Shown here: one piece after another, positions 1 to 63,536 of the stretch
How positions within the stretch are numbered: position 1 is the first letter of the stretch
Layout of the letters: each line of letters opens with the position of its first letter
IMG/VR virus record: IMGVR_UViG_3300037804_000252
Span: 1-64,000 of that record
Reading direction: 5' to 3' (one strand)
DNA length: 64,000 nucleotides
DNA from: a virus
Position numbers and translations under genes: made by a program
Notes under the pieces: model-generated
What the model was told of the DNA's origin: nothing
Database searches by the model: none
The model's input: only the letters and a program-made list of their open reading frames with translations

Positions 1-210
1 ACTTCCACTAGAACCACTTGAACCAGAAGACCCACTAGTACCAGTTGTACCACTTGAACCACTCGTTCCCGAAGTTCCACTTGTTCCAGAAGTTCCATCA
101 GAACCAGTTGTACCTGATGTTCCCGAGGTACCACTTGTTCCACTACTTCCACTAGAACCAGAAGAACCTCCACTACCAGTTGTACCTGCTGTACCAGATG
201 TCCCACTTGC
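1..210 (-). repeat. Collagen-like Gly-X-Y tract (GTS/GSS/GTT/GTA triplets)
   Basis: Minus-strand translation gives ...SGTSGTAGTTGSGGSSGSSGSSGTSGTSGTSGTTGSDGTSG..., continuing off the window edge. Confidence 0.85.
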
Positions 211-25120: not shown

Positions 25121-25191
25121 AAATTATTCCTCTCTTTAGTATAGTATCTATAAATATAAAAAAATATAAGAATAGTGTTTTTCAAAAAGGC

Positions 25192-33431: not shown

Positions 33432-33515
33432 TGTGTTTTTATCCTATAATAATATATGAATATACGATAGCATACATCGTATATAAATATAAGTTAATTT
33501 TGATTTCCTAAATTT

Positions 33516-35715: not shown

Positions 35716-35762
35716 ACTTAATCCCTATTTAACCTATACTATATAAATATAAAACTTTTATT

Positions 35763-42176: not shown

Positions 42177-42219
42177 CTGATATAGTACTATTTCCTTTGT
42201 ACTATATAAATATAGAGTT

Positions 42220-42591
42220 TTATTCTTTTGGTAATTCAGTTGCTGGAATATCTTGATTCTTTAGTTGTTCCTTCATTTGTTCCAACACTGCAGGGTTATA
42301 TGTAATAGTGCCCTTTTGTAAATCTAATTGTCCTCTTGGATATTCTTTCTCAAGTGCTGCAATCATCTTTCTCATTTCTTGATTGTCAGATTTGAAGTCA
42401 TTTTCAAGTTTATCTCTGTCAGAGTGTAATAATTCCAATTCTTCACCTAACTCCTTTTCACGGATGTATAATTGACCGAAACTATTTACTGCTTGATTTA
42501 GTTTATTATTTTGGTCTACAATCGGTTTAATAACACCTTCATCTAAGGTAACTGTTACTAATTCAATTTGTTGTTTTTCTTCGTTTGCCAT
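42220..42591 (-). CDS. Small coiled-coil protein, paralogue of 47173-47445
   Basis: QN.L...FGQL...coiled coil...KEYP.GQLDL.KG.I. Confidence 0.75.
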   Translation of the reverse strand: MANEEKQQIELVTVTLDEGVIKPIVDQNNKLNQAVNSFGQLYIREKELGEELELLHSDRDKLENDFKSDNQEMRKMIAALEKEYPRGQLDLQKGTITYNPAVLEQMKEQLKNQDIPATELPKE

Positions 42592-42646
42592 ATTACTATA
42601 AATTAATTAATTTTTGTTTTTGAATATTCGTATATAAATATATAAA

Positions 42647-43402
42647 TTATAAGTTTTCGTAATCTATTGTTGTAACACCTCGTTTTTGTACAACTTGTGC
42701 TGAACATCGATTTCCGAATTGTATTGATTTTGGAATATCGTTAGTATCTAAGAACTCTTTCACAAATCCTGCTACAAATGTATCACCAGCCCCTGAGATA
42801 TCCATAATCTCTACTTGTTCGGTTGGATATACTATATCATGATACATACATCCATCTTTATCTAATGTAACTATTAATTTTTCTACCAACCACCCATTGT
42901 CATTAATATATTCTATACTATTTTGAAATTCTGAACGGTTCTGTTTTATAAATCGTAAATTTTCACACCAATCCCCTAATTGTTTTTTCGTATCACAAAT
43001 TACATTTGGGTGTCTGAATGAGATAAAACTAATAACTTCTTCCGTTAAAAACCCTTTATTATAATCAGAGATTACAACCATATCATAATCAGAATAATTA
43101 ATAGAAAGAAGTTGTGCATCGGTTATTCTATCTATTCGTTCTTCCTCATCTATTCTTAGTAGTAAACTGTTTGATGCTTCATGAATGTGTCTTGTCTTTT
43201 TTATAGTAGATTCATGTGTAATAAAGTCAACTTCTAATTTTAGTGATGTAAGATTACTCAATACATTCAATCCCATTCCACCATTACTAACTGTCCTTAA
43301 AGGAATAAATACAGGAGCAGGTCCTTCTGGTGATAACCTTGGTGTATCTCCATAAATGAAGATATCATCACATTGTTCTCCTATTAATAAAACCTTATTC
43401 AT
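42647..43402 (-). CDS. hldA: D-glycero-D-manno-heptose-7-phosphate kinase (HldA / RfaE domain I, PfkB family)
   Basis: D..IYG...RLSPE.P.PV, ISDYNKG, D.SGAGDTF, VV.K.G. Confidence 0.85.
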   Translation of the reverse strand: MNKVLLIGEQCDDIFIYGDTPRLSPEGPAPVFIPLRTVSNGGMGLNVLSNLTSLKLEVDFITHESTIKKTRHIHEASNSLLLRIDEEERIDRITDAQLLSINYSDYDMVVISDYNKGFLTEEVISFISFRHPNVICDTKKQLGDWCENLRFIKQNRSEFQNSIEYINDNGWLVEKLIVTLDKDGCMYHDIVYPTEQVEIMDISGAGDTFVAGFVKEFLDTNDIPKSIQFGNRCSAQVVQKRGVTTIDYENL

Positions 43403-43784
43403 TGTTTAATATTTTTGTTGTACTAAAATTATCTATTCTATTAAAATAAACAATTGATTTTGCGTATTGTCCACCTATTATAGATTTATTTTTATAATCA
43501 GAACCAATTACAAAGACATCTGGTTCAAATGTTTTTATTAATTGTTCTAGCATTTCAGATGAATCAAATATCACAACTCGTTTAACACCCTTTATTCTTT
43601 CTAAGTTGTACTTTCTTTCCTCTTGTGAGTGAAAGGGTCTATCATCACCTTTAAGTTCTTTAACTCGTTTATCAGAGTCTATTCCTACTACCAATAGTTC
43701 ACCAAAACTAGCTGCGTGTTCTAATAATCTAAAATGAGCATGATGTAAGACATCAAAACAACCATTCACCCAAACTTTTTTCAT
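43395..43784 (-). CDS. hldC: Heptose-1-phosphate adenylyltransferase (HldC / RfaE domain II)
   Basis: NGCFD.LH.AH, LVVG.DSD..VK.LKG..RP, GSDY, STT.I; coupled to the hldA-like gene. Confidence 0.82.
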   Translation of the reverse strand: MKKVWVNGCFDVLHHAHFRLLEHAASFGELLVVGIDSDKRVKELKGDDRPFHSQEERKYNLERIKGVKRVVIFDSSEMLEQLIKTFEPDVFVIGSDYKNKSIIGGQYAKSIVYFNRIDNFSTTKILNNE

Positions 43785-44935
43785 AAGAACTTTTTTAATT
43801 CAGTAATTACCATATTAGAAGTTATTGATTTAGTACACTCAAAATGTCTTTCTGTTCCTTTATGTTCTGGACACCAATTCCAATCTCCTGCATCTAACCT
43901 ATGTTTATTAAAACACCCACCACATTTATCTTTAGGTGCACCGATTCTTATACAATCTTGCATTTCTGCCCATTTTTCTGAAAACCCACTGATTAAAACT
44001 GTCTTTGTTCCTAATGCCCAACTTAACCAACTTAATCCACTACCAATACCAATAAATGCTTTAGATTTTTCCATTTGATTCATAACCGATTGTAAACTTC
44101 CCTCTGGGTGTTTTTTGATACCATCTGGGTGGTAGTTACCCATATATCCACTCTCTTCTCGTGAAAGTAATTTTACTTTATACCCTTTATCATTTAACCA
44201 ATCTACCACATCTTGCCAACCAGTTGGATTATTCCAATATTTTGGTTGTGCAGTTCCATGAAAAGCAATCGTAATTAACTTATCATCTTTTTTAATTTTT
44301 TTATTTGAGATTTTAGGTTTTATTTCTACATAATCAAGTCCTAAAATATCAGACCCCATTTTTTGTAAAGGTTGTTCTAAAAAGTTATTTGGATTTAATA
44401 AAGGGTTTGGATTATTATTATCAGTATAATAAATTCCTAACTTGTACATAGCATATAGGTTATGTACGGTTGAACCAGGATTTACAAACTTTAGTGTTGG
44501 GTAGTGTTCTTCAAATAAATAATTATGAAAAGTTGATACAATTAATTCACAATTATGCTTTTTTCTAAAAGTTTCTATATATGGAAACCATGCTAATGTA
44601 TCACCAAGTGCTTTTGAATCAAATGCAATAAATACTTTTTTATTTTTTAGATTAATTTTGTGAGTATGAACCAAATCATCACCATGGTAAATATCAATTT
44701 TCCAATCTATAAAATATTCATAATTTGATTTAGCCCAATGACCTGCCTTTAATTTGTTTTCGTATAAAGTTTGTCCATTTTTTTGATTTACAAATTTTAC
44801 TAAATATTCGTTATCACTATTACCAACAACCTCTACATATGGACCATTTACAAAATGAATGTTAAATGTATCACCATCTACACTTGGTAGTTGTTTAATA
44901 TTATTTTTATTTATTTTTATATTATCGTAAATCAT
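43781..44935 (-). CDS. Autotransporter-type protein O-heptosyltransferase (TibC/AAH family, GT9-like fold)
   Basis: LGDTLAWFPY..F..KH.C, K.WNNP.GW..VV..L...GY.V, FIG..SGLSWL.WA, LISGFS, and four Cys in C..CFN...WCP.H.GT.R.FECTK.IT. Confidence 0.88.
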   Translation of the reverse strand: MIYDNIKINKNNIKQLPSVDGDTFNIHFVNGPYVEVVGNSDNEYLVKFVNQKNGQTLYENKLKAGHWAKSNYEYFIDWKIDIYHGDDLVHTHKINLKNKKVFIAFDSKALGDTLAWFPYIETFRKKHNCELIVSTFHNYLFEEHYPTLKFVNPGSTVHNLYAMYKLGIYYTDNNNPNPLLNPNNFLEQPLQKMGSDILGLDYVEIKPKISNKKIKKDDKLITIAFHGTAQPKYWNNPTGWQDVVDWLNDKGYKVKLLSREESGYMGNYHPDGIKKHPEGSLQSVMNQMEKSKAFIGIGSGLSWLSWALGTKTVLISGFSEKWAEMQDCIRIGAPKDKCGGCFNKHRLDAGDWNWCPEHKGTERHFECTKSITSNMVITELKKFL

Positions 44936-47101
44936 TTATGACCATTTTTTATCGTATAAATCTAAAAGAGAAAAACCATCTGCTTGAAGTGAATATACTT
45001 TATTTGTAGTGTATCTTGGTCTTGGGTGTGTGTAAAAAACATGATTAAACCAAAGGTCACCAACATCCCACTCACAATCGTTTATTCTATCAACCCACCA
45101 ACTTTTTTCTCTATTTGGTATCAGATAACAATGAGCAAGATTTTGATTATGACCTGTCTTTGTAAATAAATCATCTATCACTTCTTTATATTGAGACCCA
45201 TTATTTGCAAAAGATAAAAAAGGAACTTTATCTCTTTCTGAAATAAAACATGCCTTGTGTACAATATTAGTAAATTCTTCAAGTCCAACACTCAAGTATC
45301 CATCTGCTTCAAATATTAATGTATAATCAAAATTTTCAGTATCTATTGTTTCTATTGCGGTTTTATGAGCAAGATAACAACCATAATGTCTACCAGTAAT
45401 CCAACCCAAACCAGCACCTGGATAAAGTTCACCTGGTTTATTATCTTTACTGAGATGGTCTGGTCTTCTACAAAATTCTTTTGGTGCGAATCCATCATAG
45501 ACTTCATTTATAATTGGTTCGTAAACCATACCATATCTTTCTAATTGTTTTAATGAGTTATGTGATATAGTTTCTCGTAAGTCATCAGGTCTTGTTAATA
45601 AGTGTTTAACTTGAATTCTTGGTTTTCTTCTCATATAAGAATGACCATCAATTGCAACTTGATTATAAAAAAACGTTTCAACTGATTTATTGACCTCATT
45701 AAATACATTAAAATCATCACCTGCTATAATTCCACCTGGTTTTATTTTATGATACCATATATTCAGATTTTCTTCTGTTGATTGATAATCAGAATCTATC
45801 ATCATAAAATCAATAGAGTTATTTTCAAATAATTTTACTGAACTTTCTGAGGTGTCTTTTATAACATTAAATGAATCTTTGTTGTTTGAAATTAATGTGT
45901 TATCTATAAAATCACAATAAATGTCTCCATCAAAATCATTTACAATACTTTGTTTAGAGTTTTCTTTATATTCAGAAAAAGTATCAATAGTAGTAAAATT
46001 AATATTTTTTTTAGATTTTTTAATTAACTCTGCCATTTTGTTTGATGACTTACCCATCCAAGAACCAAGTTCAACAAATGTAGAATTGTCATTAAACTCA
46101 TTGACCATTCTTTTGTACACCTTTTCATATGAAAACCAACCAGGAATTTCATTAAACTCTGGTTTAAGTATTTCTATAATTGTCTTTTTTGTTTTTAATA
46201 AATCATCATCAATGTAAGTAACCAATGGATTATTATCGTAAGTATCTAAATAAGTCTCTAACTTTCTAAATATTGATTTTAATGAATACTCCAACGCTTC
46301 TTTAACTGATAGTGGGTTTAGTTCTAATGTTGAACTAAAATAAAATAAATCGGCTGCTTCGTAAAAACTACTAACATCATCTCGTTCTCCCCAAACAATA
46401 CAATTATTTGGTTTATTATCCATTAGGGGTTTCCAATAATGTTCAAAGTTTCCTGCTTGGTTACCAATGAAATGAAATTTTATTTTATACTTTTCTAACT
46501 GTCTTGCTATTCTAAAAATTTCACTTTGGTTTTTACCAGGTGTAAATAAACCAACCATGATTACATGCTTCCAATCATGCTCAAGATTTAATTCTTTTTT
46601 TGCTTTAGATTGATTTTTTTTCTTTTTTATAATTGGATATTCCCAAACATCGGTGTCTATATTCAAATGTTCAAATTGTCTTCTACTCCACTCAGACACT
46701 AAAACATATTTGTCTGCATGAAATCTTATTTCATTTGGATTTGTTTTTGAACCATGTGTGGTTACAACTATTTTATAATCTCTTTTTTTATTATTAAATA
46801 TTTTTTCTAAAGAGTTATGTGGAAGATAATGTTCTGGTATTTCTTGAAAATGAATAATGTCTGGAGTTTGACTTTCTATAATAGATTCTATTTCAGATTT
46901 GTCATCACCCAACGTATGTAATTTAACCAAACTATTTATTTGATTTTTTTGAACTACAAACGTATTTCCCGAATGATTGTTGACTTCTACTACTTGTATA
47001 TGAAAATCATCTACAAAGTTTTCTATTTGTCTTAAAAGATATTGTGGCATCCCTCCCGTAGATAAATGGGGGGCAATATATAGTAACTTTTTTTTATCCA
47101 T
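44936..47101 (-). CDS. Three-domain fusion: GT4 glycosyltransferase, class I SAM methyltransferase, and GT-A (GT25-like) glycosyltransferase
   Basis: PHLSTGG...KNQ...ADLF.F.S..E..PL.V.EA; VELGSW.GKS...W..K.KPGG.IAGDD; GCY.AH...LIFE.D. Confidence 0.8.
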   Translation of the reverse strand: MDKKKLLYIAPHLSTGGMPQYLLRQIENFVDDFHIQVVEVNNHSGNTFVVQKNQINSLVKLHTLGDDKSEIESIIESQTPDIIHFQEIPEHYLPHNSLEKIFNNKKRDYKIVVTTHGSKTNPNEIRFHADKYVLVSEWSRRQFEHLNIDTDVWEYPIIKKKKNQSKAKKELNLEHDWKHVIMVGLFTPGKNQSEIFRIARQLEKYKIKFHFIGNQAGNFEHYWKPLMDNKPNNCIVWGERDDVSSFYEAADLFYFSSTLELNPLSVKEALEYSLKSIFRKLETYLDTYDNNPLVTYIDDDLLKTKKTIIEILKPEFNEIPGWFSYEKVYKRMVNEFNDNSTFVELGSWMGKSSNKMAELIKKSKKNINFTTIDTFSEYKENSKQSIVNDFDGDIYCDFIDNTLISNNKDSFNVIKDTSESSVKLFENNSIDFMMIDSDYQSTEENLNIWYHKIKPGGIIAGDDFNVFNEVNKSVETFFYNQVAIDGHSYMRRKPRIQVKHLLTRPDDLRETISHNSLKQLERYGMVYEPIINEVYDGFAPKEFCRRPDHLSKDNKPGELYPGAGLGWITGRHYGCYLAHKTAIETIDTENFDYTLIFEADGYLSVGLEEFTNIVHKACFISERDKVPFLSFANNGSQYKEVIDDLFTKTGHNQNLAHCYLIPNREKSWWVDRINDCEWDVGDLWFNHVFYTHPRPRYTTNKVYSLQADGFSLLDLYDKKWS

Positions 47102-47136
47102 AACAAATTTATTTATAGTGTAAATACACTACAATA

Positions 47137-47168
47137 CAAATATAAGAAAAAATTATTTGAATACCAAA
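47137..47168 (-). promoter_or_regulatory. Bacteroidota primary-sigma promoter driving the glycosylation operon
   Basis: Minus strand TTTG-N20-TATATTTG, matching the -33/-7 consensus TTTG-N19-21-TAnnTTTG. Confidence 0.8.
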
Positions 47169-47172
47169 TATT

Positions 47173-47445
47173 TTAGAAAATAATAATTCCTTTTTCTAAA
47201 TCAATTTGTCCATTAGGATATTTTTTATCAATCTCACCTAATTCAAGATTCATTTCGTTGATTGACTTATCTAATCTTAATCCAAATTCATCTTCCTTTG
47301 AATCCAACTCATCAAGACTTTTTTCAAATTGTCTTCTCTGAACTGCTAATTGACCTAGTGCAATTACAAGATTGTTTTGTTCATCTTGAATTCCTTTTAG
47401 TTTTTCAACTAATGATTGTTCTAATTGTTCTGTTTTTTGTTCCAT
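47173..47445 (-). CDS. Small coiled-coil protein, paralogue of 42220-42591
   Basis: QN.L...LGQL...coiled coil...KKYP.GQIDL.KG.I. Confidence 0.75.
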   Translation of the reverse strand: MEQKTEQLEQSLVEKLKGIQDEQNNLVIALGQLAVQRRQFEKSLDELDSKEDEFGLRLDKSINEMNLELGEIDKKYPNGQIDLEKGIIIF

Positions 47446-47502
47446 GTTAAATCCACTTTATGTATACATATATAAGTATATACTTTTTTTATTTAACGAA
47501 AA

Positions 47503-47895
47503 TTATTCTGGTTTTGTTGGGAGTGTATATGGTGGAGTTTGTGAAGTTATATCTCTCAAGTCTTGTCTATATTGAACCCACTCATCTAATTTAGAACCAG
47601 TAATAGGAGAATGAGGAAGTACTACCCAATCACTATCATTCAATAATGAGTTTCGTGTATTTCTAATACCAAGTAATTGTTCAGCGTTTATTTCATCGGT
47701 AGTAAATGGTACTTCGGTGTGAACACCATCAATTACTCTGTATCTAATATTACTTCTAGCTTCTATCCATTCCTCTTTAGTTAGTTCTATATTTGGAGTT
47801 GGTATAGAATCATAGTCAGTCCATATATCAGTTGGATGATAACTTTTGTAATCACCACTACCAGTATCATAATGTGCGAAATATTGTATTGCCAT
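47503..47895 (-). CDS. Tail fibre assembly chaperone (Tfa-like)
   Basis: IP...IE.T.EEW; R..RN.LL..SDW...P..P...W..YRQ.LRD......P.KP; immediately downstream of the fibre gene. Confidence 0.82.
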   Translation of the reverse strand: MAIQYFAHYDTGSGDYKSYHPTDIWTDYDSIPTPNIELTKEEWIEARSNIRYRVIDGVHTEVPFTTDEINAEQLLGIRNTRNSLLNDSDWVVLPHSPITGSKLDEWVQYRQDLRDITSQTPPYTLPTKPE

Positions 47896-47909
47896 AATTT
47901 ATTTTTTTA

Positions 47910-50900
47910 TTAATGTCCTATTGCTATCCAAAACCCAGATGTTCCATCTAATATGATATCCATTCCATTCCTATCCACATTAGATACATGATTAAATCCA
48001 CTTCCACCTGCTGAGTTTCTTAGAGTAGAACAAACAGCTGCACTTATTGAGGTTGGGAATTCAGTTGGAAATCCAACATTCTTTATACCATAAGAAGTAC
48101 CTTGATTAACACTTCCCCATTGTATTATTACACCACCAGGAAGTTTTACATAACTATCTTTATTATTAACGACTGTTGTTTGACCCGTGGTTCCTGTTAT
48201 AGAATTGACAAGTGAAACTGCCAGTCCACTAATATCTATACCATTTAGATATTTCCATCTATTTCCATCTTTACCTAATGCAAATGGTCTATAAACTCCA
48301 CCAGTTGCACTTATACTATTAGTACTAGCTACATCAGGGTTCATTGGTAATATGTTACCCATTGCAAATATTGCTTGTGCATTAGTATCATCGTAGGCTG
48401 AAGCTGCTGGGTCAACAGCAAATGCTCTTGATGTAATTTCTAAATGACCATCACCTACTTCTAATAATTTTGTGGCAGTATCAATCAATTCTCTTCTAAA
48501 AATTCTTACAAATCTATCGTTATTAGATACAACTTGTATTCCTGCTGGTCTTATTTCTACAAAGTTATTTTCTGCTTGAACTGTAATATCCTGGTCCCAA
48601 CCTCCATAACTATAACCACCATTACTAAAAAACTCTTCAGTATAATTTGATGTAGAGGTATTTGTTTTGAATGTTGTAGTATGAACGTTCCAAGGTCCAG
48701 CCGTAAACCCACCACCTGATGTAACAGAAAAACTCTGTCCAGAAGCAGATGCAACTTCCCATCTATATCTAAGTCTAGCAGGTCCACTTTCTTGAATAGA
48801 GATACTTTTTTCAACCGTTTCTGAAGATGAAGATTTATTACCTCCACCTGAAGATGCTCCGTCAATTATTTGATATACCCATTCTAAAGTATCCCCACCG
48901 ATGATGTTGTGAGAAATAATACCATTTGAAAGATAGTTTACATAGTGAGGTACACTAAAGGTTATTACCTCTTCTTCTTTTTCAATTATTTCAACTTTGC
49001 TTATTTTAACTGCTTTTATAGAGTCACCATCTTTAATACGAACATGGTAACCATCTTCTTCTAGTAAATCAGTATGATTTTTATAAACATCATATAAATT
49101 AGTTACTTTTACCTTTCCACTGTTTAATTGTGTACCAAATAACCAAAAACAGTGATTTTTGGAAACTTCAATCTCTTTTCCATCAGTAGTTGTTACTTTA
49201 TAGACTTTAGATACATCTCTTTTATGAATTTTAGATAATTTAGCAGATACCCATTTTTTATTTATATCATCCCATGCTAAAATCGTATCATTGATGGTAA
49301 TATATTTTGCTAACTTCGTAGTACCATCCGATAAAGTTATCTTAGTATCACCCACTACCGAAAGCTGACCACCACCACCAAATGTTTCCTCTGCCTGATA
49401 ATTGGAATATGAATTTGTTGGACCGTAAGTGTAAAGAGTTTTTAGTAATGTCTCTCCAATTACCACATCATCATTATTAATAACTTCTAGATAAACCGAA
49501 CCTCTTCGTTGTTGAGGAGATGGGTATGCTTGTATCCCCCCATGTATCTCACCTGAAAAGACCGGGTCATTGGAAGGTTGAGCAATTGTTGGATTTTGCG
49601 GTGATGTCATTCCAGTTTGTTTTAACTGAAGATATGGTATGGTAATATCCTTAAATGTTTTTACACCCGCTGAGATTGTTATAGGAGTGTTTGATGGTAT
49701 TGAAGTTCCTGTTGTTTTCGCAAAAGTTTTACCATTACTAGTAGAGGTTGCGGATATATTACTTCGAAGACCTCCAACAGAGGTTGCTGCGGAACCAGAC
49801 CATGTAAAACTTGTGTTTAGTGCTGCTGTTGATGAGAAATCCGAAACCGAATCTATTCGTATTTGTTCTCTACTTGATACCGGAATCAACTCTGATGGGT
49901 TCGAACCTGCTTCATATAATTGAACAGGTGCCCCATAACCAGTTGCATTTTCATTATAATAATAGAAATTGGTTGACGGTCTAGATGCTCCTAATACTGG
50001 TGAATTACCAAAAAGGTCAAAACTTTCAGATGGAAATATCGTAAGATATGCACCCGCATTACCTGGTAATGCACTTGAGGTTTGGATTAAGAATGGTTGG
50101 TTTTCAATGTTACTTGTATCTAAAGTTGTTGGTCTATTATACCTACCACCATATGTACCAATACCATCTTCTCTAACTGAGAAACTAAATAACTGATTTA
50201 ACATTGATGGGTGAGATAAATCAAAGTAATAACTACCACCATTATCTGTTGCAGGGGCCTGTTGCTCCAGTCGGGTTTGGGTTGGAGTAAATGGTAAAAA
50301 CTCTGACATGATTAAGTTAAGAGAAGCTTTGGATTCAGTGACATCAGAACTAAGACCTATGGCGAACGCATTATTCTCAACAAATACAGACATACTTCTA
50401 GGTGCACTTGTATCCACTTCTTCATATGACTGACTAAATATTTTTATACTAGGTGGTATCCCTATGTCAGCATCACCTGGATTTAATATAATTTCATTAC
50501 CATCATCTCTAAGTGTATTTGTTGTCTCATCAATAATCCATTCACCAATTTTACCAGAACTTGCTTGAACCGTACCTGCTATATTTGCGTCTGATGCCGA
50601 AACAATTCCAAGTATATCAACAGTAAATCTATATTCATTTGTATTTGGTCCAGTTTCTCCTATGAATAGTGATGGTCCTATAATTGCAGAACCAGTACCA
50701 GTAAATGATGCATCTGATAATGTAATTGCTCCATCTTTATATCTTAAAAATCTAGAACCAGTAGACATTGACAAAACAGGTAAACTTCCCGTGTATCCTA
50801 AGTATATTCCATCTTCTCCAAAATCTTGAACTACCTGCCCAATAGATATAAATGGATTTTCGTTATTGTTACTTGCGTCAGCATTTAATGCAATTGTTGG

Positions 50901-53900
50901 AGTTCCTGTATTATCTGCACCAATGTTAATTGTTTGGTCTACATAAACTTCTTGAGCTAGAAGAATATCAGTTGCAACTGAACTAAACTGAGCTCCAAAT
51001 GATGTCCAATCACTACCACCAACTGGATTATCCCAAGTATCTAATCCATTTTTATTTGAATTATCAACTATATAGTAATTACCATCACTACCCTCTACAA
51101 CATCAGTTCTCTCAGTAGATTGAAAGTAAAGTTTAGTTGAATCATAAACTCCTCTGAATACTACTCCTGCTCCAGGTGCTCCAGGTGCACCAGTTGCTCC
51201 AGAGGAACCAGCAGTTCCAGCAGTTCCCGAAGTACCATCGACACCAGCATTTGCTCGTGTAAATGATTGTTTCTTAACAAGTCTAACAATATCACCATTT
51301 GCTTTTTTATGTTTTAGTACATGATTGATAAATCCATTGGCTGTACTAAAGTTTGTTAAATTTCCTATTGTACCCGTTGTAGTACCACCTCCACCAATTG
51401 TTGGAAATTGTCCACCTGTAAATCCTTTATATAATGATGCTTCAATTGTGAATTCAGAATTATTCAATGCTGAAGGATTACTTGTACGAATTTGATAATC
51501 ACTATCACCATCAAATGCACAAAAATCAAATAAGATACCAGATGCACCTTGTCCACTAATTTCGTATTCATCTGAAAGTACTACTTCCCAATTTGTACCA
51601 CTTGTATTATTGATAGCTTTAACTTTTGCGTAATCGAATCCACTTTGTACATCAACTCCCTCGGATTGAAAACCACCATCAACATTCACATCATGTACCC
51701 AAAGAATTCCTAACTCCGCAAGAATTTGCATCAGTTGAAGCATCGATGCTTGTCCTGAACTTATATCACTTTCACTAAATGTAATTACCGCATCTCCTTG
51801 ACCTTCGTTTCCAGGACCCTGTATTTCAAAATTAACATTAATATCAATATTTTGGTCTGGGTTTTTGAAAGTTAATGGAGTTGTTCCTTCATATGCATTT
51901 ATTTCAGTTCCACTATCTGAAAAGTTGGTTATAGTTCCAGTAGAATTTGCTTGGAATGTGTGAGATTCATTTGATAATACGGATGTGATTGCATTAGAAC
52001 CATCTGTGAGTCTAACAACAGTTATTTCATCAGATTTACCACCAGCAGTAGCAGTAACAGTAACTGCGGTGTTTGTACCAAAATCTCCTTTTCTCAAATA
52101 AACAGTATCACCAGTTGTGGTTGAACTACCACCAGTTGATGCATCATAAAGAGTTACCGATGGTGAAGTTGTCCAAGATGTTGCAGTTCCTATATTTTCT
52201 TTATTAGCAGTAAACTCAATAAAATCAGGAGTTAGTACACCATTTGTTCCTTCTACAAAAGATTGACCATCTGTGGTTAATCTTAATGTTTTTGCTGCCA
52301 AATTGGATTCTTGCCAATATGTTGTGTATGAAGAACCTACACCAGGTTCATCGTTACCAACACCCTTATCATGAACTAAGATACATTCCCAAGTTATACC
52401 ATTATTAGATGTTGTATCTCCTACTATAAAAGAAAACCCACTTACGAGAGTACTCCATGCTGCAAGAATTCTGCTTTCTACCTCACCTTCAGGTGTTTGT
52501 CTAAGTGCACCTCTGATAGTTAGTGTTTCACCATTCCATTCTAACGATTTATACTTTCCACTAACGGTGTTACTTTTCATTGACATCTTTGGAAGGATAC
52601 TTGTTCCCGCATCCCCTGCCGAATTGGACATACCCATCCAAATTCCTTGTTCTTGGAATCCGATAGTACCCGTTTGTCCTACTGCAATATAAGGTTCATC
52701 AGTACCACCTGCAATTGTAATTTGTGGATTGACTGCGTATGAAGTTGGTGGTGTACCAACATTAAGTGTATTTTTTACAAATGACTCTTCAAATATTGCT
52801 AACTTTGCTGCTACGAAGAATTCTTCTTGACCAAGTGATACCCAATAATCAGTATTTACTTCTCTACCACCACTACCATCATCTCTTGTTGGTGCTTGAG
52901 CGTCTCCTGCACCAGGTGATGAATCATTAGGAGTTATAAAAGAAGAACCACTGTCTTTTGTTGCGTAATAGGTATCATATGGTTCATTACCACTTTCAGA
53001 ATAAAGTACAGAATCTCTTCGTTTAGATTCTTTGTTATAGATATATTCTATTGAACCAGTCCAAGGCCCTCTAAACACAAGACCAGGACCCACATCACCC
53101 TCTTTTGTTGATGCTATTGATTGTGATAAGAAATAAGTTGCTCTACCATTTTCAATATCAACTTTGTAAATTACAGTTGCAGTTGGATTGTCTTGTGGTA
53201 AAGTCCAATCAGTTAATGGTCCTACTGACGCAGGGTTTCCTTGTGGGAAACTTGGTTGAGTAATGTATGTATCTAAGTTAAATATAGATGAAGAAAACTC
53301 ACCAAGTGTACCAATAGGGTCACCTACATTATCAAGTTGTTGACTAGAGTAGTTCTGAACATTAGTTAGTTCTTGAGTACCCTTAAATGCTTTTATCTGA
53401 GTACCAGTTGTACTTAAATCAAGTTCTCCATCAACCTTAACTGTAATTGTTGGTGATGGGTTAGTTAAAAATACCTGATAATTATTTGCTCCACTTTGTA
53501 CACCCGATATAGTTACTTCCTTACTTGCGAATACTGGTCCACTTATTGAACCATCTCGTAAATCAACTCTATACGTTGTAGTTGTACCAGGTGCAGGTAA
53601 ATCACCAGACCCAACTTCAAACTGATTGTTTGTACCAGGAAAAGTAACTGCGAATCCTTCTTGAAAGAATTCATAATATGCTTGAGATGATGTTATATTA
53701 AATGGTGTTGCTGTAAGAAATATAGATGTTGGTTCTAAAGATGATGCGTCTACTGGTGATGTTATAATACCATCCTTATCATAATTTGCTACCTCGGTTG
53801 TGGTTGATAGTTCAACACTTCTTGCTCGTATACCTTCTTTATTTTTTGAAAATAGTTGTTTTCTATTTACGGTTTGAGACCCACTTAATATTCCACTTGT

Positions 53901-56900
53901 AATTGAGAATGGATATATTTTAATTTGGTAATCAACACTACCACTATCAGTTAAAAAGTTATTAAAGTCTCTAAAATGTAGTGTATCATCTAAATTTCTT
54001 TCAGTTGAATTATCATTTGAAGATGAGAATGTACCAATTGATATTTGGTTTGGAGAAAGAGACGCACTAAATGTACCAGGTAAAACTAAAGAAGATGTAC
54101 TAAACTCCATGTAAGTATCACCCTGTTTAACTCTCAATGTTGTATTTGCAGAACTAAAGTCAACTATTCCTCCGTTTTCTTCTGCATCTATTGTTACTGA
54201 CACTGGGTCTAATTCTATATTGATTGCATCTGCACCTTCTAGTGTTTTCTTAAACTGTTGAACAAAACTTTGTGTATAAAATGAACCCGTAAAGTATGGA
54301 TGGATTTCCAAATCATATGTAACACTTGCTGTTAGGTCTGTCATTCTTCGGAAACCACTTAAAGACATTGTTGCGTCTCCAAGAATTTCATCAAAAGTTG
54401 TATACTCAATCCCTAAAGGAGTTATTGATGATGTAGTAAATGTACCAGGTTTTTTTGTATCATCAAATATAAGTGGTAATCTACCTTGTGTTACAGTAAT
54501 TGTTGTATCTGCATTTGAATAGTTAAATACATTTCCTCGTTGGTCTGCATTAAGAACTACTGGTCTTGGGTCTATATCAACTATAATAGAATCTACACCA
54601 GGTAATCCATCAGGTACAGAAAAAAATGTTTTATCTACTGAAATCGATGCTGATGTGATATCCTCAGTATATGTAAATGTTGTAGTTAATTGTTTTCGTT
54701 CTATTGGTACGAAATATGAAACTTCCTCACCAGGTCTACCACTATCTACAATGTTGTTGTCTTTATCAGTTACTACAATATCGATTCTTCTATCAAACGA
54801 ATCAGTAACGTAGAACATATAATAAAATGGTTCTTTTGTCTCAGGGTCAACCGACATTGATGGGTAGATATCTAAAGTACCACTAATTGGACTTGAGTTA
54901 GTTCCTCTTAAATAGAAAGAACCAGTAACTCTACCAATCTCTGGAGTGAAAACTCTTTCATCTCTCGGTTTTATTCCAAATTGTTCTGCATCAAAACTAA
55001 TAAATCCACTTGCAAGACCATCTTGTAAATCATTTAGAATAATAGAAGTTAATATAGATTCAGAAGTAGGTCCATCCATTAAATAAACCGTAAGTTCTTT
55101 ATCTATTGAATCTCTGTTAAAAGTTGCGTTATAATCTATTTCACCACTACCAGTTGTACCCGCAGTTAAACCTCTTATAAATCCACTTGTCTGTACTTCA
55201 GATAATAAAAAATATGATGATGATACATCAGATGTGATTGGGTCAATTGATGAGGATAATACCCTAAGTTTGGCATCTGAAAATCCTGTCTGAGGTAATC
55301 CATCCTTTAACTCAATTCTATTTATACCATCAATACGATATGCTTGTATTTCTAAATCTTTATCAGAATTATTTTTTATCGATGTTCCTCTAAATGGTGT
55401 TATTTCAAAATTTACACCACCCTTTCCATCTTGAACCCGTGTAATAACAACTTCATCTGATATACCTTCTGCGAATCCAGTAAATCTAATATATTGAACT
55501 ACGATATCACTTCTTGAACCAGTAAAATCTGCAACATTAAGAACAGGTGTTCTTGTATCTATATTTCTTAATAATCCAGGATATTGTCCTCCTGCGTATT
55601 CTGACGCAGATAGGAAGTTCCCAAACTCATCGTATGCACCAGATGTAAATGATATGGAACCTGTCAATAAACTTGTTTCAATATCAAATATTATTGATGT
55701 TGGTGGCATTGGATTTGCTGGAAGCGATGCCGAATCAAATGTAAAATATAAATTAGATGGAGTTATTTCAAGTTCTTTATCAAATAAGTTTAAGTTACCA
55801 CCATCAAACCTTTTTGTTGCTTCTACTAAAACAGGAATGTAGTTGTTATTGATATCATAAAATTCAAACCTATAATCAAATGTTTCAACTGCTAATGTCT
55901 TTGGAACATTTTGAATAAATGTTATGACATCAGGTGAAAATGATGTTTCTTGAGATGCTTTCAGACTTAAATTGTTTATATACCAATTAGAGCCATTTAC
56001 ATCAAAGTATAGTTGTGCAGAATCAAATTCATCTGCTATAAAATTTTCATTAAAGTTTGTTTTTTGAAAAAGTCCATTAGAAGAAGGTATCTCGATTATC
56101 GTTTGAGACTTTGCTACATTATTTAGAGAACCACTCAAAAACACAGTTAGTTTTTCTCCTGCTACTAAACTTCCAGAAAGTCTTGTATTAAAGTCAAGTG
56201 AGTATTCAATATCATTTTCAATATCTAAACTTTTTGTTGTAAAAAATAAATTATCACCTGTTGAGTTTAACCTTGCTGAATTATATAAAAAGTTTTGGTT
56301 AAGGGAAACACTTAAATCATTAGATGATGTTACCCAATACTCTTCTATTATAGGTTCAGTAAAAAACCCGTAAAGTTCTTCTGGTGCTGAAAAGGTTTCA
56401 ATGTCTCGTAGTAACTCATTTGATTCTAATTGTATTTCTTGTACAAATTCGAAATCGGTTACATTGGATTGAGACCTTCTAAATATTTTTACTCTCGCAG
56501 CATCTCCTACGAAAGTTTTCATATCAGTTATTTTTATTTTTGCGAAAGAACCAGTTAATGCAGTTGCTAAGTCATTAATACCCTCTAAATATGGGAACGT
56601 TACTGAATAGTTTTCATTGGTAAGTGATTTTACCAAACCATTTTCGGAATATGGTGGAGTTACTATTAACTCAGTTTCATTTACAACTTCTTCAACTATT
56701 GGATTATAGTTTATATTATCAAAATTTATAGGGTCTCCTTCAATAGAGCCTGTCCAATTATTTCCTGTTTTAATTTTTAATCTATATGAAGTTGGTAAAC
56801 TAAAATTAGATAAATTTGTATTTTCAATCGGAACTAATGGAATACCATCAACAGTACCAGTTTGAGTAACTAATCTTGAATTATTGCTAAAAATTGGTTT

Positions 56901-57488: not shown

Positions 57489-57656
57489 ATGAATAAAAAA
57501 TATGCAATGTTACAAATTGATGCTGAGGTTCATCAATTATTAAAGTCTTTTTGTAAAGAAAAGGGATATAAGATGAATGGATTAGTAGAGTCTCTTATAA
57601 AAGAAAAAGTATCACCGAAACAAACTCAACCACAAAACATTTTAAGGTCTAACTAA
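57489..57656 (+). CDS. Ribbon-helix-helix DNA-binding protein (55 aa), absent from the ORF track
   Basis: MNKKYAMLQIDAEVHQLLKSFCKEKGYKMNGLVESLIKEKVSPKQTQPQNILRSN: beta strand, helix, G turn, helix; fills the intergenic gap and has ATATTTAT upstream on its own strand. Confidence 0.8.
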   Translation: MNKKYAMLQIDAEVHQLLKSFCKEKGYKMNGLVESLIKEKVSPKQTQPQNILRSN

Positions 57657-58470
57657 CTGCTCTACCTTTCATCTGTTCCCAATCTCTATTCTTCCTAACC
57701 GAATCATTTGTTTTTTGGGTTGCGGATAAAACATTATTTGTTGTTCCCATAATTTGAGTAATGTAAAGTAGTGCCGATAAATCTTTTGGAAAACAATGTC
57801 CACCGAATCCAAAATCACCATCATGACCAGGTACGTTCCAATGTGAGTTACCCAATCGGTCATCATGAGTTGCATATTCAACAACTTTATCATAGTCAAT
57901 ATTCAAACCTTCACATAACTGATATATCTCATTCGCGAAAGAAACCTTTACCGATAAGAATGTATTAGTTAGATACTTTACCATTTCAGCATGAGTTGAA
58001 TCGGTTTTGATTATATTTGCTTTAGGAAATACTTTTGAAAATATCCTTTTTAGATTTGTTGTTGATGGTCTTGGTCCTCCTAAAATAATTCTATTTTGAT
58101 TATTATAATCTTCTATCGCATTCCTTTCAGTTAAAAACTCTGGGTTAAATACAATCTGTAAAGATGGAAACTTTTTATTTAATCTTTCGGTAGTTCCTGG
58201 TGGAATAGTTGATTTAATAACAACAGTTTTGGTTACACCAAATTCAAAACATCTTTTAACTGCATATTCTACAATTGAGGTATTACATCTACCAACCTCA
58301 TCCATTGGAGTTGGTAAACAAATAAATACAATTTCATTATCTAATGTTTTTTGTTCTGATGAATTACTTTTAGATGAGTCTAAATCATAAGTACTTATAT
58401 TGTAATACTTTTTGAATTTTTGATAAACTGCATTTCCTACAAAACCTTGACCTATTATTCCTATACCCAT
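57649..58470 (-). CDS. ugd: UDP-glucose/GDP-mannose dehydrogenase family protein (short phage form)
   Basis: GIIG.GFVG, IC.PTP, KSTIPPGTT, FNPEFL.E, E..K...N.F...K..F.NE, GFGG.CFPKD. Confidence 0.9.
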   Translation of the reverse strand: MGIGIIGQGFVGNAVYQKFKKYYNISTYDLDSSKSNSSEQKTLDNEIVFICLPTPMDEVGRCNTSIVEYAVKRCFEFGVTKTVVIKSTIPPGTTERLNKKFPSLQIVFNPEFLTERNAIEDYNNQNRIILGGPRPSTTNLKRIFSKVFPKANIIKTDSTHAEMVKYLTNTFLSVKVSFANEIYQLCEGLNIDYDKVVEYATHDDRLGNSHWNVPGHDGDFGFGGHCFPKDLSALLYITQIMGTTNNVLSATQKTNDSVRKNRDWEQMKGRAVS

Positions 58471-63503: not shown

Positions 63504-63536
63504 AATTGTTTTCCTTTATATATTATAAATATAACC

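What the first reader, a model, noticed from the sequence alone, without database searches (positions are those of the whole stretch)
42647..47168. Phage-encoded ADP-heptose synthesis and TibC/AAH-type protein O-heptosyltransferase: candidate virion heptosylation system
Seen: one operon under a host-type promoter encodes a GT4-methyltransferase-GT fusion, a transferase with the TibC/AAH signature including four C-terminal Cys, HldC and HldA; ugd lies about 10 kb away. Known: TibC/AAH use ADP-heptose to hyper-glycosylate Ser residues in repetitive beta-rich autotransporter passengers, and HldA/HldC are two steps of ADP-heptose synthesis. Inference: there is no autotransporter here, but the operon sits among giant Ser-rich repetitive virion proteins. 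The phage may make its own donor, heptosylate its particle and then extend and methylate the glycan, for shielding, stability or adhesion. GmhA, GmhB and HldD are not in this window.
Basis: partly seen in the sequence, partly recalled or inferred. Interest (0 to 1): 0.9.

Follow-up and report, generated by a model that had tools for sequence, protein, structure and literature searches.

The report
Phage TibC-like heptosylation operon for collagen-like fibre
A marine T4-like phage carries a four-gene operon with a true relative of the E. coli adhesin-glycosylating enzyme TibC plus two ADP-heptose pathway enzymes, and comparison with many genomes suggests it sugar-coats the phage's own proline-free Gly-Thr-Ser collagen-like fibre, although no sugar has been observed.

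Summary
On the minus strand, 42647-47101 is a tight four-gene operon. It encodes a GT4 / methyltransferase / GT25-like fusion, and a 384-aa enzyme that passes NCBI's Aah/TibC model (273 bits, cut-off 200) and folds like TibC (TM 0.85). The last two genes are HldC-like and HldA-like; heptose enzymes are their best matches, but both score below the curated cut-offs. The 88.7-kb contig (about 44% of the genome) has no gmhA, gmhB, hldD or autotransporter.

The target can be narrowed. The enzyme belongs to a distinct clade of the family. In bacteria, 16 of 28 clade members lie within 2 kb of a gene with a (Gly-Ser/Thr-Ser/Thr)n tract, against 1 of 51 classical members. The cultured phage Mel-JY01 fuses GT4 and TibC-like domains two genes from such a fibre.

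The window's 2313+-aa protein (1-6939) breaks off 66 residues into such a tract. Its 91%-identical orthologue continues for 337 Gly-X-Y triplets.

Most likely the phage raises ADP-heptose supply, heptosylates this fibre, then extends and methylates the glycan. Nothing has been tested at the bench. The scan reached the same reading on other DNA (at least 193 genomes); this window adds the clue to the donor sugar.

The parts
47102..47168 (-). Region upstream of the operon. It holds TATATTTGTA (47135-47144), a one-mismatch copy of the phage's recurrent intergenic motif, and TATAAATA (47110-47117) 9 nt before the ATG.
   Evidence: The 7 exact TATATTTATA copies in the window all lie on the coding strand. 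Neither TATAAATA (16 found, 12.8 expected) nor sigma-70-like sites are enriched. Promoter function is inferred.
44936..47101 (-). 721-aa fusion protein: GT4 glycosyltransferase (about residues 3-320), Methyltransf_24 (343-464) and a GT25-like domain (495-721). Proposed to extend and methylate the glycan.
   Evidence: Pfam; PHROGs; GT25 is weak. The protein is conserved next to the TibC-like gene in 15 of 15 viral loci. GT4 is fused to the TibC-like domain in Mel-JY01 and in 27 of 56 fused representatives.
43781..44935 (-). 384-aa Aah/TibC-family protein O-heptosyltransferase (P0001).
   Evidence: TIGR04414 at 273.3 bits against a cut-off of 200. PDB TibC E 3.9e-49. Model pLDDT 91.4 with TM 0.84-0.85 to 4rap/4rb4, against 0.39-0.48 to the LPS heptosyltransferases WaaC and heptosyltransferase II. 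D112, T228, K232, W303 and the four Cys are kept.
43395..43784 (-). 129-aa HldC-like nucleotidyltransferase (P0004), the proposed heptose-1-phosphate adenylyltransferase.
   Evidence: rfaE_dom_II at 108.6 bits (cut-off 181.5), against 74.2 bits for glycerol-3-P cytidylyltransferase. phrog_7878. PDB does not separate HldC from cytidylyltransferases.
42647..43402 (-). 251-aa HldA-like PfkB kinase (P0003), the proposed heptose-7-phosphate 1-kinase. It is shorter than bacterial HldA.
   Evidence: rfaE_dom_I at 116.7 bits (cut-off 345). The best PDB match is Burkholderia HldA 4e84 at E 1.2e-10; the next is ribokinase at 6e-5. The GAGD motif is aligned.
1..6939 (-). N-terminal 2313 aa of a giant fibre protein, cut by the contig end. 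Its last 66+ residues (nt 1-204) begin a Gly-Thr/Ser-Ser collagen-like tract. This is the candidate acceptor.
   Evidence: Pfam Collagen E 4.2e-6, 26.9 bits against a cut-off of 27.2. The orthologue L100 is 90.7% identical over residues 1-2244, is 3539 aa long, and has 337 G-X-Y triplets.
47910..57398 (-). 3162-aa tail fibre immediately upstream of the cassette. It has one short Gly-Ser/Thr tract (residues 2055-2069, nt 51192-51236).
   Evidence: Gp53-like_C E 1.1e-10; tract; orthologues precede the cassette in related loci.
47503..47895 (-). 130-aa tail-fibre assembly chaperone.
   Evidence: PF16778 E 4.3e-11; PHROG tail-fibre assembly families.
47173..47445 (-). 90-aa coiled-coil-like protein, a paralogue of 42220-42591. 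The two flank the operon.
   Evidence: BLASTP 32% identity over 78 aa, E 7e-9. A homologue is present in 11 of 15 related loci. Function unknown.
42220..42591 (-). 123-aa paralogue of the 90-aa protein, directly after the operon.
   Evidence: A homologue is present in 15 of 15 related viral loci. No family match.
57649..58470 (-). Truncated UDP-glucose dehydrogenase-like gene (273 aa). Whether it belongs to the system is uncertain.
   Evidence: PF00984 and PF03721 only; phrog_9148.

Best explanation
This is a phage system that glycosylates the phage's own fibre. The four-gene operon is expressed with the virion module.

1. The HldA-like kinase and HldC-like adenylyltransferase raise the supply of ADP-D-glycero-D-manno-heptose. 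The starting heptose 7-phosphate, and the GmhA and GmhB steps, must come from the host or from the unsequenced half of the genome.
2. The TibC-like enzyme transfers heptose to Ser/Thr hydroxyls of the proline-free (Gly-Thr/Ser-Ser)n collagen-like tract of the giant fibre. That fibre's N-terminal two thirds are encoded at 1-6939.
3. The GT4 and GT25-like domains of the neighbouring fusion add further sugars, and its methyltransferase domain caps them.

The result would be a densely glycosylated fibre shaft with up to about 600 Ser/Thr per chain. The coat probably stabilises, hydrates or shields a triple helix that has no proline.

Shown by computation: the gene content, the family membership and fold of the transferase, the operon structure, and the genomic pairing of this enzyme clade with such tracts.

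Inferred: the acceptor, the donor, the order of the steps and the purpose.
For: Enzyme identity:
- TIGR04414 at 273.3 bits against a cut-off of 200; the LPS heptosyltransferase models reach only 25-27 bits.
- TibC in PDB at E 3.9e-49.
- Model TM 0.84-0.85 to TibC over the full length, against 0.39-0.48 to the LPS heptosyltransferases.
- Kept: the catalytic Asp, Thr/Lys/Trp of the sugar pocket, the four Cys, and a hydrophobic thumb tip.

Clade:
- A tree of 98 rows rooted on E. coli Aah puts all 17 phage rows in one clade of 45 rows (SH-aLRT 99, stem length 0.61), apart from the classical enzymes.

Pairing with tracts:
- 16 of 28 cellular clade members have a tract of at least 7 Gly-Ser/Thr triplets in an open frame within 2 kb, against 1 of 51 outside the clade (Fisher p 2e-8; rows are not independent).
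- Ten other neighbours from 6 such loci are unrelated: nine match mutually unrelated families, mostly housekeeping, and one matches none.
- Mel-JY01 fuses GT4 and TibC-like domains in one 1226-aa protein. Two genes upstream lies an open frame of at least 1016 aa with 537 aa of tract.
- Huge phage LR756501 has a tract protein, a homologue of the GT4/methyltransferase part of the fusion, and a TibC-like fusion side by side.
- The TibC-less relative, phage immuto, has no such tract in 160,000 nt.

This window:
- The fibre at 1-6939 ends in the tract.
- Its orthologue goes on for 337 G-X-Y triplets, with X = Thr 64% / Ser 28%, Y = Ser 72%, and 6 Pro in 1145 residues.
- All 12 orthologues examined have 483-846 aa of tract.
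- A 102-kb contig with a 45%-identical fibre also carries a TibC-like gene.

Donor:
- HldA-like and HldC-like genes overlap the transferase operon.
- Their best families and best PDB kinase match are heptose enzymes.
- 13 of 15 related viral loci keep HldC beside the transferase, and 9 of 15 also keep HldA.

Glycan extension:
- Fusion partners in 56 representatives are GT4 (27), FkbM methyltransferase (13), Methyltransf_24 (7) and sugar O-methyltransferase families.
Against: - No experiment exists; the acceptor rests on gene neighbourhood.
- In this phage the fibre gene is about 37 kb from the transferase, not adjacent.
- The 12 clade members without a nearby tract include full-length 17-kb loci (L022, L026, L028, L039), although L022 has a looser Ser-rich neighbour.
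- The pairing traces to essentially one origin of the clade, so the Fisher p overstates independence.
- HldA and HldC score far below the curated cut-offs.
- HldC is not separable from cytidylyltransferases in PDB, and it aligns HHAH against the cytidylyltransferase's HYGH at the nucleotide-binding motif.
- TibC Arg-286, which reads adenine and is needed for activity, aligns to Val and varies across the clade. Pro-300 aligns to Gly.
- GmhA and GmhB were found in none of the 9 records searched for gmhA or the 6 searched for gmhB, including the complete Mel-JY01 genome.
- Two of 15 related loci have no HldA or HldC, and Mel-JY01 has neither.
- A published reading of rfaE/ugd/GT genes in the fibre regions of marine myophages is modification of the host O-chain (PMC7029224, passages).
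Confidence: 0.5

Rival explanations
1. The enzyme glycosylates virion proteins, but not mainly the collagen-like tract. Its targets would be scattered Ser/Thr-Gly-Ser/Thr motifs in the giant fibre and decoration proteins, closer to the first reader's general 'particle heptosylation'.
For: [ST]G[ST] and [ST][GAS]S are far above composition-shuffled expectation in the giant proteins. In the 2313-aa protein with its terminal tract removed, the counts are 81 against 13 (z 19.9) and 130 against 30 (z 18.4). In the 4585-aa protein [ST][GAS]S is 106 against 28, and in the 3162-aa fibre 35 against 16. Portal, terminase and the enzymes show no excess. The cassette sits directly after the 3162-aa fibre and its chaperone.
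Against: Internal repeats inflate these counts: the 4585-aa protein has a 108-aa repeat. Such scattered motifs cannot explain why bacterial clade members sit beside small secreted proteins whose only shared feature is a pure (Ser-Gly-Thr)n tract.
Confidence: 0.2
2. The operon remodels the host envelope during infection, for example by adding heptose to LPS or to a host surface protein. This would block superinfection or help release, as has been proposed for 'LPS-related' genes of marine myophages.
For: PMC7029224 (passages read) reports rfaE, UDP-glucose dehydrogenase and glycosyltransferases inside the fibre hypervariable region of pelagimyophages and reads them as O-chain modification. HldA and HldC are LPS-core pathway steps, and GT25 is an LPS family.
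Against: The transferase scores 273 bits on the protein-heptosyltransferase model and 25-27 bits on the LPS heptosyltransferase models. Its model gives TM 0.85 to TibC against 0.39-0.48 to the LPS heptosyltransferases. The clade pairs with tract proteins in bacteria. No anti-phage defence family matched.
Confidence: 0.1
3. The system glycosylates proteins, but the donor is not ADP-heptose. The small kinase and nucleotidyltransferase would make another activated sugar or polyol, and the TibC-like enzyme would have shifted donor specificity.
For: Both enzymes are below the curated cut-offs. The nucleotidyltransferase matches ethanolamine-P and glycerol-3-P cytidylyltransferases as well as it matches HldC. 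The Arg that reads adenine in TibC is Val here and varies across the clade. There is no GmhA or GmhB. Some relatives lack both genes.
Against: Heptose models are the best match for both proteins, by 34 bits and 71 bits over the next distinct family. HldA is the best PDB match for the kinase by five orders of magnitude. Thr, Lys and Trp of the heptose/phosphate pocket are kept.
Confidence: 0.15
4. The cassette hypermodifies phage DNA with heptose, as shown for some phage gene clusters that put mono- and di-heptose on 5-hydroxymethylcytosine.
For: bioRxiv 10.1101/2023.12.21.572611 (passages read) reports that a kinase-like enzyme, a cytidylyltransferase and a GT-B transferase together make heptosyl-5hmC. 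This gene set looks superficially similar.
Against: No thymidylate-synthase-family hydroxymethylase was found in this contig, in a related 62.9-kb contig, or in the complete Mel-JY01 genome. The Tet/JBP search was uninformative because its control rang nowhere. The transferase is a TibC-family protein with the N-terminal barrel and iron finger, not a T4 beta-GT-like enzyme. About 56% of this genome is unseen.
Confidence: 0.03

Closest known systems
TibC-TibA and Aah-AIDA-I of E. coli (bacterial autotransporter heptosyltransferases, BAHT; TIGR04414; PDB 4rap/4rb4; eLife 2014, PMC4358343, passages read)
   Same: Same family by curated HMM and by fold. The catalytic Asp, the Thr/Lys/Trp of the sugar pocket, the four iron-finger Cys and a hydrophobic thumb tip are kept. 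The enzyme gene travels with a Ser-rich repetitive substrate gene.
   Different: About 30-35% identity, and a separate clade on a long stem. No autotransporter is present. The candidate acceptor is a Gly-X-Y collagen-like tract rather than a beta-helix. Arg-286 and Pro-300 are not kept. The gene is phage-encoded, sits in an operon with HldA/HldC-like genes, and lies next to a GT4/methyltransferase/GT25-like fusion.
Phage clusters that heptosylate 5hmC in DNA (bioRxiv 10.1101/2023.12.21.572611, passages read)
   Same: Phage-encoded kinase-like enzyme, nucleotidyltransferase and GT-B transferase that use heptose.
   Different: Those transferases resemble T4 beta-glucosyltransferase and act on DNA. 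Here the transferase is TibC-like, and no hydroxymethylase was found.
'LPS-related' auxiliary genes (rfaE, ugd, glycosyltransferases) in the fibre hypervariable region of marine pelagimyophages (PMC7029224, passages read)
   Same: Marine T4-like phages with rfaE-like, ugd-like and glycosyltransferase genes among the fibre genes.
   Different: That paper reads them as modification of the host O-chain, and in the passages I saw it does not mention a TibC-type enzyme. By capsid protein, this phage is nearer to Flavobacterium phage immuto and Microcystis phage Mel-JY01.
Glycosylated collagen-like or virion proteins elsewhere: BclA of Bacillus anthracis, Thr-galactosylated cuticle collagen of Riftia, and glycosylated capsid and tail proteins of mycobacteriophages (all recalled from memory; no call)
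   Same: O-glycans on Thr/Ser of Gly-X-Y repeats that can stand in for hydroxyproline, and phage-encoded transferases that decorate virions.
   Different: Different enzyme families and sugars. None uses a TibC-type heptosyltransferase as far as I recall.

Membership tests
BAHT / Aah-TibC protein O-heptosyltransferase (TIGR04414) | Score above the curated cut-off of the equivalog model | tested here: met
   273.3 bits against 200, covering model positions 25-373 of 374.
BAHT / Aah-TibC protein O-heptosyltransferase (TIGR04414) | Fold: N-terminal flattened beta-barrel plus a GT-B-like catalytic domain with thumb and finger insertions | tested here: met
   Model pLDDT 91.4, pTM 0.90. Foldseek TM 0.84-0.85 to 4rap/4rb4 over 373-389 columns; LPS heptosyltransferases (WaaC, heptosyltransferase II) give 0.39-0.48.
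BAHT / Aah-TibC protein O-heptosyltransferase (TIGR04414) | Catalytic base Asp-110 and the four iron-finger Cys (339, 342, 358, 370 in TibC) | tested here: met
   D112, C338, C341, C355 and C367 align and are invariant in 19 sequences. Residue roles are from PMC4358343. Iron binding itself cannot be tested here.
BAHT / Aah-TibC protein O-heptosyltransferase (TIGR04414) | ADP-heptose contacts Thr-226, Lys-230, Trp-305 and Arg-286 | tested here: inconclusive
   Thr, Lys and Trp are kept. Arg-286 aligns to Val and that column varies in the clade. Pro-300, the D,D-selectivity determinant, aligns to Gly.
BAHT / Aah-TibC protein O-heptosyltransferase (TIGR04414) | Partner autotransporter with a beta-helical passenger as substrate, usually the next gene | tested here: not met
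   No PF03797 barrel in the 88.7-kb contig. The E. coli references do sit next to AIDA-I or another autotransporter.
BAHT / Aah-TibC protein O-heptosyltransferase (TIGR04414) | Dodecameric ring; heptosyl transfer to Ser | not testable with these tools
The thumb tip is Tyr-Met where TibC has Phe-Val.
[quoted passage not shown] | Score above the curated cut-off | tested here: not met
   116.7 bits against 345. It is still the best family (the next distinct one, ribokinase, scores 45.4). The best PDB match is HldA 4e84 at E 1.2e-10. The protein has 251 aa, compared with 315 positions in the model.
[quoted passage not shown] | Score above the curated cut-off; separation from cytidylyltransferases | tested here: not met
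   108.6 bits against 181.5; glycerol-3-P cytidylyltransferase scores 74.2. PDB E-values are 2e-17 (ECT), 6e-17 (TagD) and 4e-16 (HldC 5x9q).
Complete ADP-heptose pathway (GmhA, HldA, GmhB, HldC, with or without HldD; order recalled from textbook knowledge) | All steps encoded | tested here: not met
   No gmhA, gmhB or hldD in the contig. No gmhA in 8 related records and no gmhB in 5, Mel-JY01 included. The contig is about 44% of the genome.
Collagen-like triple-helix repeat (PF01391) | Uninterrupted Gly-X-Y periodicity | tested here: met
   The window has at least 66 residues at the contig end. Pfam gives 26.9 bits against a cut-off of 27.2. The orthologue has 337 triplets.
Collagen-like triple-helix repeat (PF01391) | Pro-rich X/Y positions; trimeric helix | tested here: not met
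   6 Pro in 1145 residues; X is Thr/Ser in 92% and Y is Ser in 72%. Helix formation cannot be tested here.

The most novel reading that the evidence does not exclude
A whole clade of TibC-like enzymes, in phages and in bacteria, is a dedicated 'serine-collagen' glycosyltransferase. It would coat proline-free (Gly-Thr/Ser-Ser)n triple helices with heptose-based, extended and methylated glycans at almost every triplet. The sugar would take the role that hydroxyproline plays in animal collagen, and marine and freshwater phages would use it to build very long glycosylated fibres. This window, with HldA and HldC inside the operon, would then identify the first sugar as heptose.
Probability: 0.4. 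Interest if true: 0.8.

Novelty: new variant of a known kind. Interest (0 to 1): 0.7.

Why it matters
Protein O-heptosylation is known only for autotransporter adhesins of Gram-negative pathogens.

If the reading holds, the same enzyme family has a second, much wider use: decorating collagen-like tracts of phage fibres and of small secreted bacterial proteins. The clade is abundant. The representative search found 1516 clusters at 50% identity, and near-identical DNA of this operon occurs in at least 14 marine or estuarine runs.

It would also change how the 'LPS-related' auxiliary genes in marine myophage fibre regions are read, from host-surface remodelling to virion glycosylation. And it offers a testable answer to how a triple helix without proline could be stabilised.

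A cultured phage, Mel-JY01 on Microcystis, makes this directly testable.

I found no paper that links collagen-like proteins with heptosyltransferases or this enzyme family with phages. The searches were made, and one search found no paper on Mel-JY01 in the library. Subscription journals and supplements were not covered.

Tried and rejected
DNA hypermodification was considered because heptosyl-5hmC clusters exist. No PF00303 hydroxymethylase was found in three records. The Tet/JBP search is uninformative, because its control rang in no genome.

A T4-type late promoter was considered. TATAAATA sits 9 nt before the first gene, but the motif is not enriched (16 found, 12.8 expected). A host-type promoter is not supported either (55 sites, 66.8 expected).

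The 1145-aa neighbour (38739-42176) was considered as an acceptor because its C-terminus varies between relatives. It has no Ser/Thr tract, so I dropped it.

A first six-frame tract count with 5 triplets gave false hits: the Mel-JY01 fusion gene has none in frame. I replaced it with the rule of at least 7 triplets in an open frame of at least 80 aa.

The strict DNA pattern for seven Gly-Ser/Thr triplets missed Mel-JY01, a known positive. Its zeros for immuto and LR756508 therefore mean little by themselves. Immuto was re-scanned at protein level; LR756508 was not.

LR756504 has a lone TibC-like gene with no tract within 20 kb.

RNA evidence: contigs from three seawater RNA libraries match parts of all four operon genes without mismatch, and one bridges the HldC/TibC junction. 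The tool warns that DNA carry-over is possible and that contigs give no level or strand, so I do not count this as expression. Two of the DNA holders are labelled soil. I did not lay them and draw nothing from them.

No PADLOC family matched. P0002 has no PDB sequence match.

The whole-genome context of the 240-kb and 288-kb contigs that hold close homologues could not be read. Supplementary files were not requested.

Full report
**What is there.** The window is the first 64 kb of an 88,699-base IMG/VR viral contig. CheckV rates it 44% complete, and its GC content is about 28-38%. Nearly all genes lie on the minus strand. The capsid protein is T4 gp23-like, with terminase and portal beside it. 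By capsid protein the nearest cultured phages are Microcystis phage Mel-JY01 (54%) and Flavobacterium phage immuto (51.5%). Near-identical DNA of the finding occurs in 14 runs at 0.86 or more of the sampled words. These come from seawater, marine and estuary metagenomes, plus two labelled soil that I did not lay.

**The operon.** Four genes abut or overlap on the minus strand.
- 44936-47101 (721 aa) has a GT4 domain and a Methyltransf_24 domain. Its C-terminal 227 residues are GT25-like, but only weakly: PF01755 E 0.004, below the cut-off. Six of 7 homologues match at E<=1, best 2.1e-5, and the Atlas gives a lead.
- 43781-44935 (384 aa, P0001) scores 273.3 bits on TIGR04414, cut-off 200. It scores 25-27 bits on the LPS heptosyltransferase models.
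- 43395-43784 (129 aa) is closest to rfaE domain II (108.6 bits, below the cut-off of 181.5).
- 42647-43402 (251 aa) is closest to rfaE domain I (116.7 bits, below the cut-off of 345).

For the kinase, the best solved relative is Burkholderia HldA at E 1.2e-10; ribokinase follows at 6e-5. The nucleotidyltransferase cannot be told apart from cytidylyltransferases in PDB.

The upstream region holds a one-mismatch copy of TATATTTATA. All 7 exact copies of this motif in the window lie on the coding strand. Neither a sigma-70-type nor a T4 late-type promoter is statistically supported.

**Is the transferase really a TibC?** Against PDB it matches only TibC, at E 3.9e-49. Passages of the TibC structure paper (PMC4358343) name these residues:
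- Asp-110 as catalytic base;
- Thr-226, Lys-230, Trp-305 and Arg-286 as ligand contacts;
- Pro-300 as the D,D-heptose selectivity determinant;
- Cys-339, 342, 358 and 370 as the iron finger;
- Phe-265/Val-266 as the thumb tip.

In the alignment the Asp, Thr, Lys, Trp and all four Cys are kept, and the thumb tip is Tyr-Met. Arg-286 is Val and Pro-300 is Gly. In 19 relatives the Asp, Lys, Trp and Cys are invariant, while the Arg column varies.

An AlphaFold model built on that alignment (pLDDT 91.4) superposes on TibC at TM 0.84-0.85 over the whole length, N-terminal barrel included. The LPS heptosyltransferases (WaaC, heptosyltransferase II) give 0.39-0.48.

Family membership is therefore met. 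The adenine contact and the partner autotransporter are not: no PF03797 domain is in the contig.

**Relatives and synteny.** The word-indexed search gave 2566 proteins at E<=1e-10, and the 120 listed are 60% or more identical. The exhaustive search of 50% representatives gave 1516 at E<=0.001. Most of the 150 listed are 500-2000-aa fusions. Of 56 fused ones scanned, 27 carry GT4, 13 an FkbM methyltransferase and 7 Methyltransf_24, and a few carry sugar O-methyltransferase or GT2 families.

Fifteen IMG/VR loci share this order: giant fibre, chaperone, 90-aa protein, GT fusion, TibC-like, HldC, HldA, 123-aa protein, a roughly 1000-1300-aa cytidylyltransferase-like protein, then terminase.
- Nine of the 15 have HldC and HldA.
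- Four, all identical, have HldC only.
- Two, identical, have neither.
- By distinct lineage, about six in all, that is four, one and one.

In the public phage collection only 4 records hold a relative: Mel-JY01 and three huge-phage records. In Mel-JY01 the GT4 and TibC-like domains are one 1226-aa protein.

**The acceptor.** I scanned bacterial and archaeal genomes with the 19-sequence alignment (560 relatives among 600 stretches, 80 kept). Many neighbours turned out to be proteins made largely of Ser-Gly-Thr triplets:
- signal-peptide proteins in Methylococcales;
- lipoprotein-like proteins with poly-Asp tails in Arenicellales and related Gammaproteobacteria;
- a 534-aa protein in a Pseudobdellovibrionaceae MAG;
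- fibre-like proteins on low-GC, phage-like MAG contigs.

I applied a fixed rule: at least 7 consecutive Gly-Ser/Thr triplets in an open frame of at least 80 aa. It is met in 16 of 27 loci whose enzyme is 36% or more identical to P0001, and in 2 of 45 below that (8 of the 80 loci gave no ORF-level match and were not counted).

A tree of 98 rows (IQ-TREE quick search, rooted on E. coli Aah and a second plasmid enzyme that sit next to AIDA-I and another autotransporter) puts all 17 phage rows and 16 of the 17 tract-adjacent cellular rows in one clade of 45 (SH-aLRT 99, stem 0.61). The Enterobacterial, Burkholderiales, Lentisphaerota and Selenomonadales enzymes fall outside. By clade, 16 of 28 cellular members have a tract within 2 kb, against 1 of 51 outside (Fisher p 2e-8).

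The rows are related, so this is one origin kept across at least five distant lineages, not 16 independent events. Ten other neighbours from 6 such loci are unrelated: nine match mutually unrelated families, mostly housekeeping (adenylosuccinate lyase, GST, FtsX, pyrophosphatase, thymidylate synthase and others), and one matches none. The tract gene is thus the only recurrent partner.

Twelve clade members lack a strict tract. Seven are on contigs under 10 kb. L022 has a looser Ser-rich neighbour. L026, L028 and L039 have none by the rule, and L027 has one 5.6 kb away.

**Phage side.**
- Mel-JY01 has an open frame of at least 1016 aa two genes upstream of the fusion. The frame consists largely of Gly-Thr/Ser-Ser triplets, with 537 aa in tracts. 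GenBank annotates the opposite strand there.
- In huge phage LR756501 three genes lie side by side: a 699-aa tract-bearing protein, a homologue of the GT4 and methyltransferase part of the fusion, and a 743-aa TibC-like fusion. The record has 999 strict pattern matches.
- LR756504 has a lone enzyme and no tract within 20 kb.
- Phage immuto, a capsid relative without the enzyme, has no such tract and no Gly-X-Y run of 8 or more in 160,000 nt.

**This window.** The 2313-aa open frame at 1-6939 runs off the contig end. Its last 66 residues are Gly-Thr/Ser-Ser triplets; Pfam Collagen scores 26.9 bits against a cut-off of 27.2.

A complete orthologue, L100, is 90.7% identical over residues 1-2244. 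It has 3539 aa and continues with 337 Gly-X-Y triplets: X is Thr 64% / Ser 28%, Y is Ser 72%, and there are 6 Pro in 1145 residues. A globular end follows. All 12 orthologues examined hold 483-846 aa of tract.

Of five contigs holding such a fibre, the largest (102 kb) also holds a TibC-like gene (293.8 bits). The other four are 15-38% complete fragments.

The 3162-aa fibre just upstream of the cassette has one 15-residue tract.

**Donor.** Neither gmhA, gmhB nor hldD is in the contig. gmhA is absent from 8 related records and gmhB from 5, including the complete Mel-JY01 genome. So the phage can at most boost two steps of a host pathway. The missing epimerase would fit TibC's use of ADP-D,D-heptose, but the selectivity residue differs here. 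The donor remains an inference, supported by best-family matches and by the operon link.

**Rivals.** Heptosylation of DNA is known for other phage clusters. No hydroxymethylase was found here, and the Tet search was uninformative. Host O-chain modification is the published reading of similar gene sets in pelagimyophages; the transferase's family and fold and the clade's pairing argue against it. Scattered [ST]G[ST] motifs are strongly over-represented in the giant virion proteins and may be extra or alternative sites.

**Earlier scan notes.** After reaching this reading I looked at the scan's notes. The same pairing of a TibC-like enzyme with proline-free Gly-Ser/Thr fibres has been noted on other DNA, in at least 193 genomes, with the sugar mostly left open. 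These are AI notes, not independent evidence. What this window adds is HldC and HldA inside the operon.

**Literature.** In the library I found no paper linking collagen-like proteins with heptosyltransferases (one unrelated paper). Two reviews mention this family and phages without such a link, judged by their listings only. Nothing on Mel-JY01 is in the library. Subscription journals and supplements were not covered.

**Verdict.** This is a new variant of a known kind of system, untested at the bench.

Noticed in passing
window 21791-21800, 25149-25158, 33482-33491, 35742-35751, 42205-42214, 42633-42642, 63524-63533: TATATTTATA occurs exactly 7 times, always on the coding (minus) strand. Six copies are in intergenic regions 20-45 nt before a start codon, ahead of both structural and replication genes. 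It is probably this phage's promoter element, and it is the reverse complement of the T4 late box.
   Followed up: partly
L002 (Mel-JY01, PP395634.1) 2-3052, plus strand: An open frame of at least 1016 aa made mostly of Gly-Thr/Ser-Ser triplets is not annotated. GenBank has two hypothetical genes on the opposite strand instead. This is probably a mis-annotation of a collagen-like fibre that runs across the start of the record.
   Followed up: partly
window 7844-21601: The 4585-aa protein has a strong 108-residue internal repeat (self-identity 0.19 at lag 108 against a median of 0.07). Another first-reader note reads these as repeats with a C-x-R-D motif. I did not examine this.
   Followed up: no
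window 1-6939, 7844-21601, 47910-57398: [ST]G[ST] and [ST][GAS]S tripeptides are 2-6 times above composition-shuffled expectation in the giant virion proteins and not in portal, terminase or the enzymes. This agrees with another first-reader note on this genome. Internal repeats may inflate the counts.
   Followed up: partly
window 38739-42176: A 1145-aa protein has an N-terminal cytidylyltransferase-like domain (PF01467, E 4e-8). It is conserved next to the cassette in all 15 related loci and in Mel-JY01. Its C-terminal half differs even between otherwise near-identical contigs (99% identity over only 601 aa in L003).
   Followed up: no
window 49904-50258 (residues 2713-2831 of the 3162-aa fibre): A sub-threshold Intein_splicing hit (E 1.8e-6, 28.3 bits against a cut-off of 35.8) lies inside the tail fibre. 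It could be a self-cleaving or chaperone-like module.
   Followed up: no
L013 5597-7594: In one related phage lineage a 665-aa radical SAM/SPASM protein sits between the fibre and the glycosyltransferase cassette. This hints at a further fibre modification.
   Followed up: no
window 57649-58470: The ugd-like gene encodes only 273 aa: the NAD-binding and central domains, with no C-terminal UDP-binding domain. The 250-nt gap after it is too short to hold the rest.
   Followed up: partly
run X2, laid: A run filed under a coded organism name rather than as a metagenome holds a 16.4-kb contig with one mismatch to 43624-57300. It might point to a culture or enrichment that contains this phage or its host.
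   Followed up: no
L018 and L020: Two MAGs assigned to different classes (Oxalobacteraceae and Bradyrhizobium) carry nearly identical TibC-like genes and flanks. This suggests a binning artefact or a shared mobile element.
   Followed up: no
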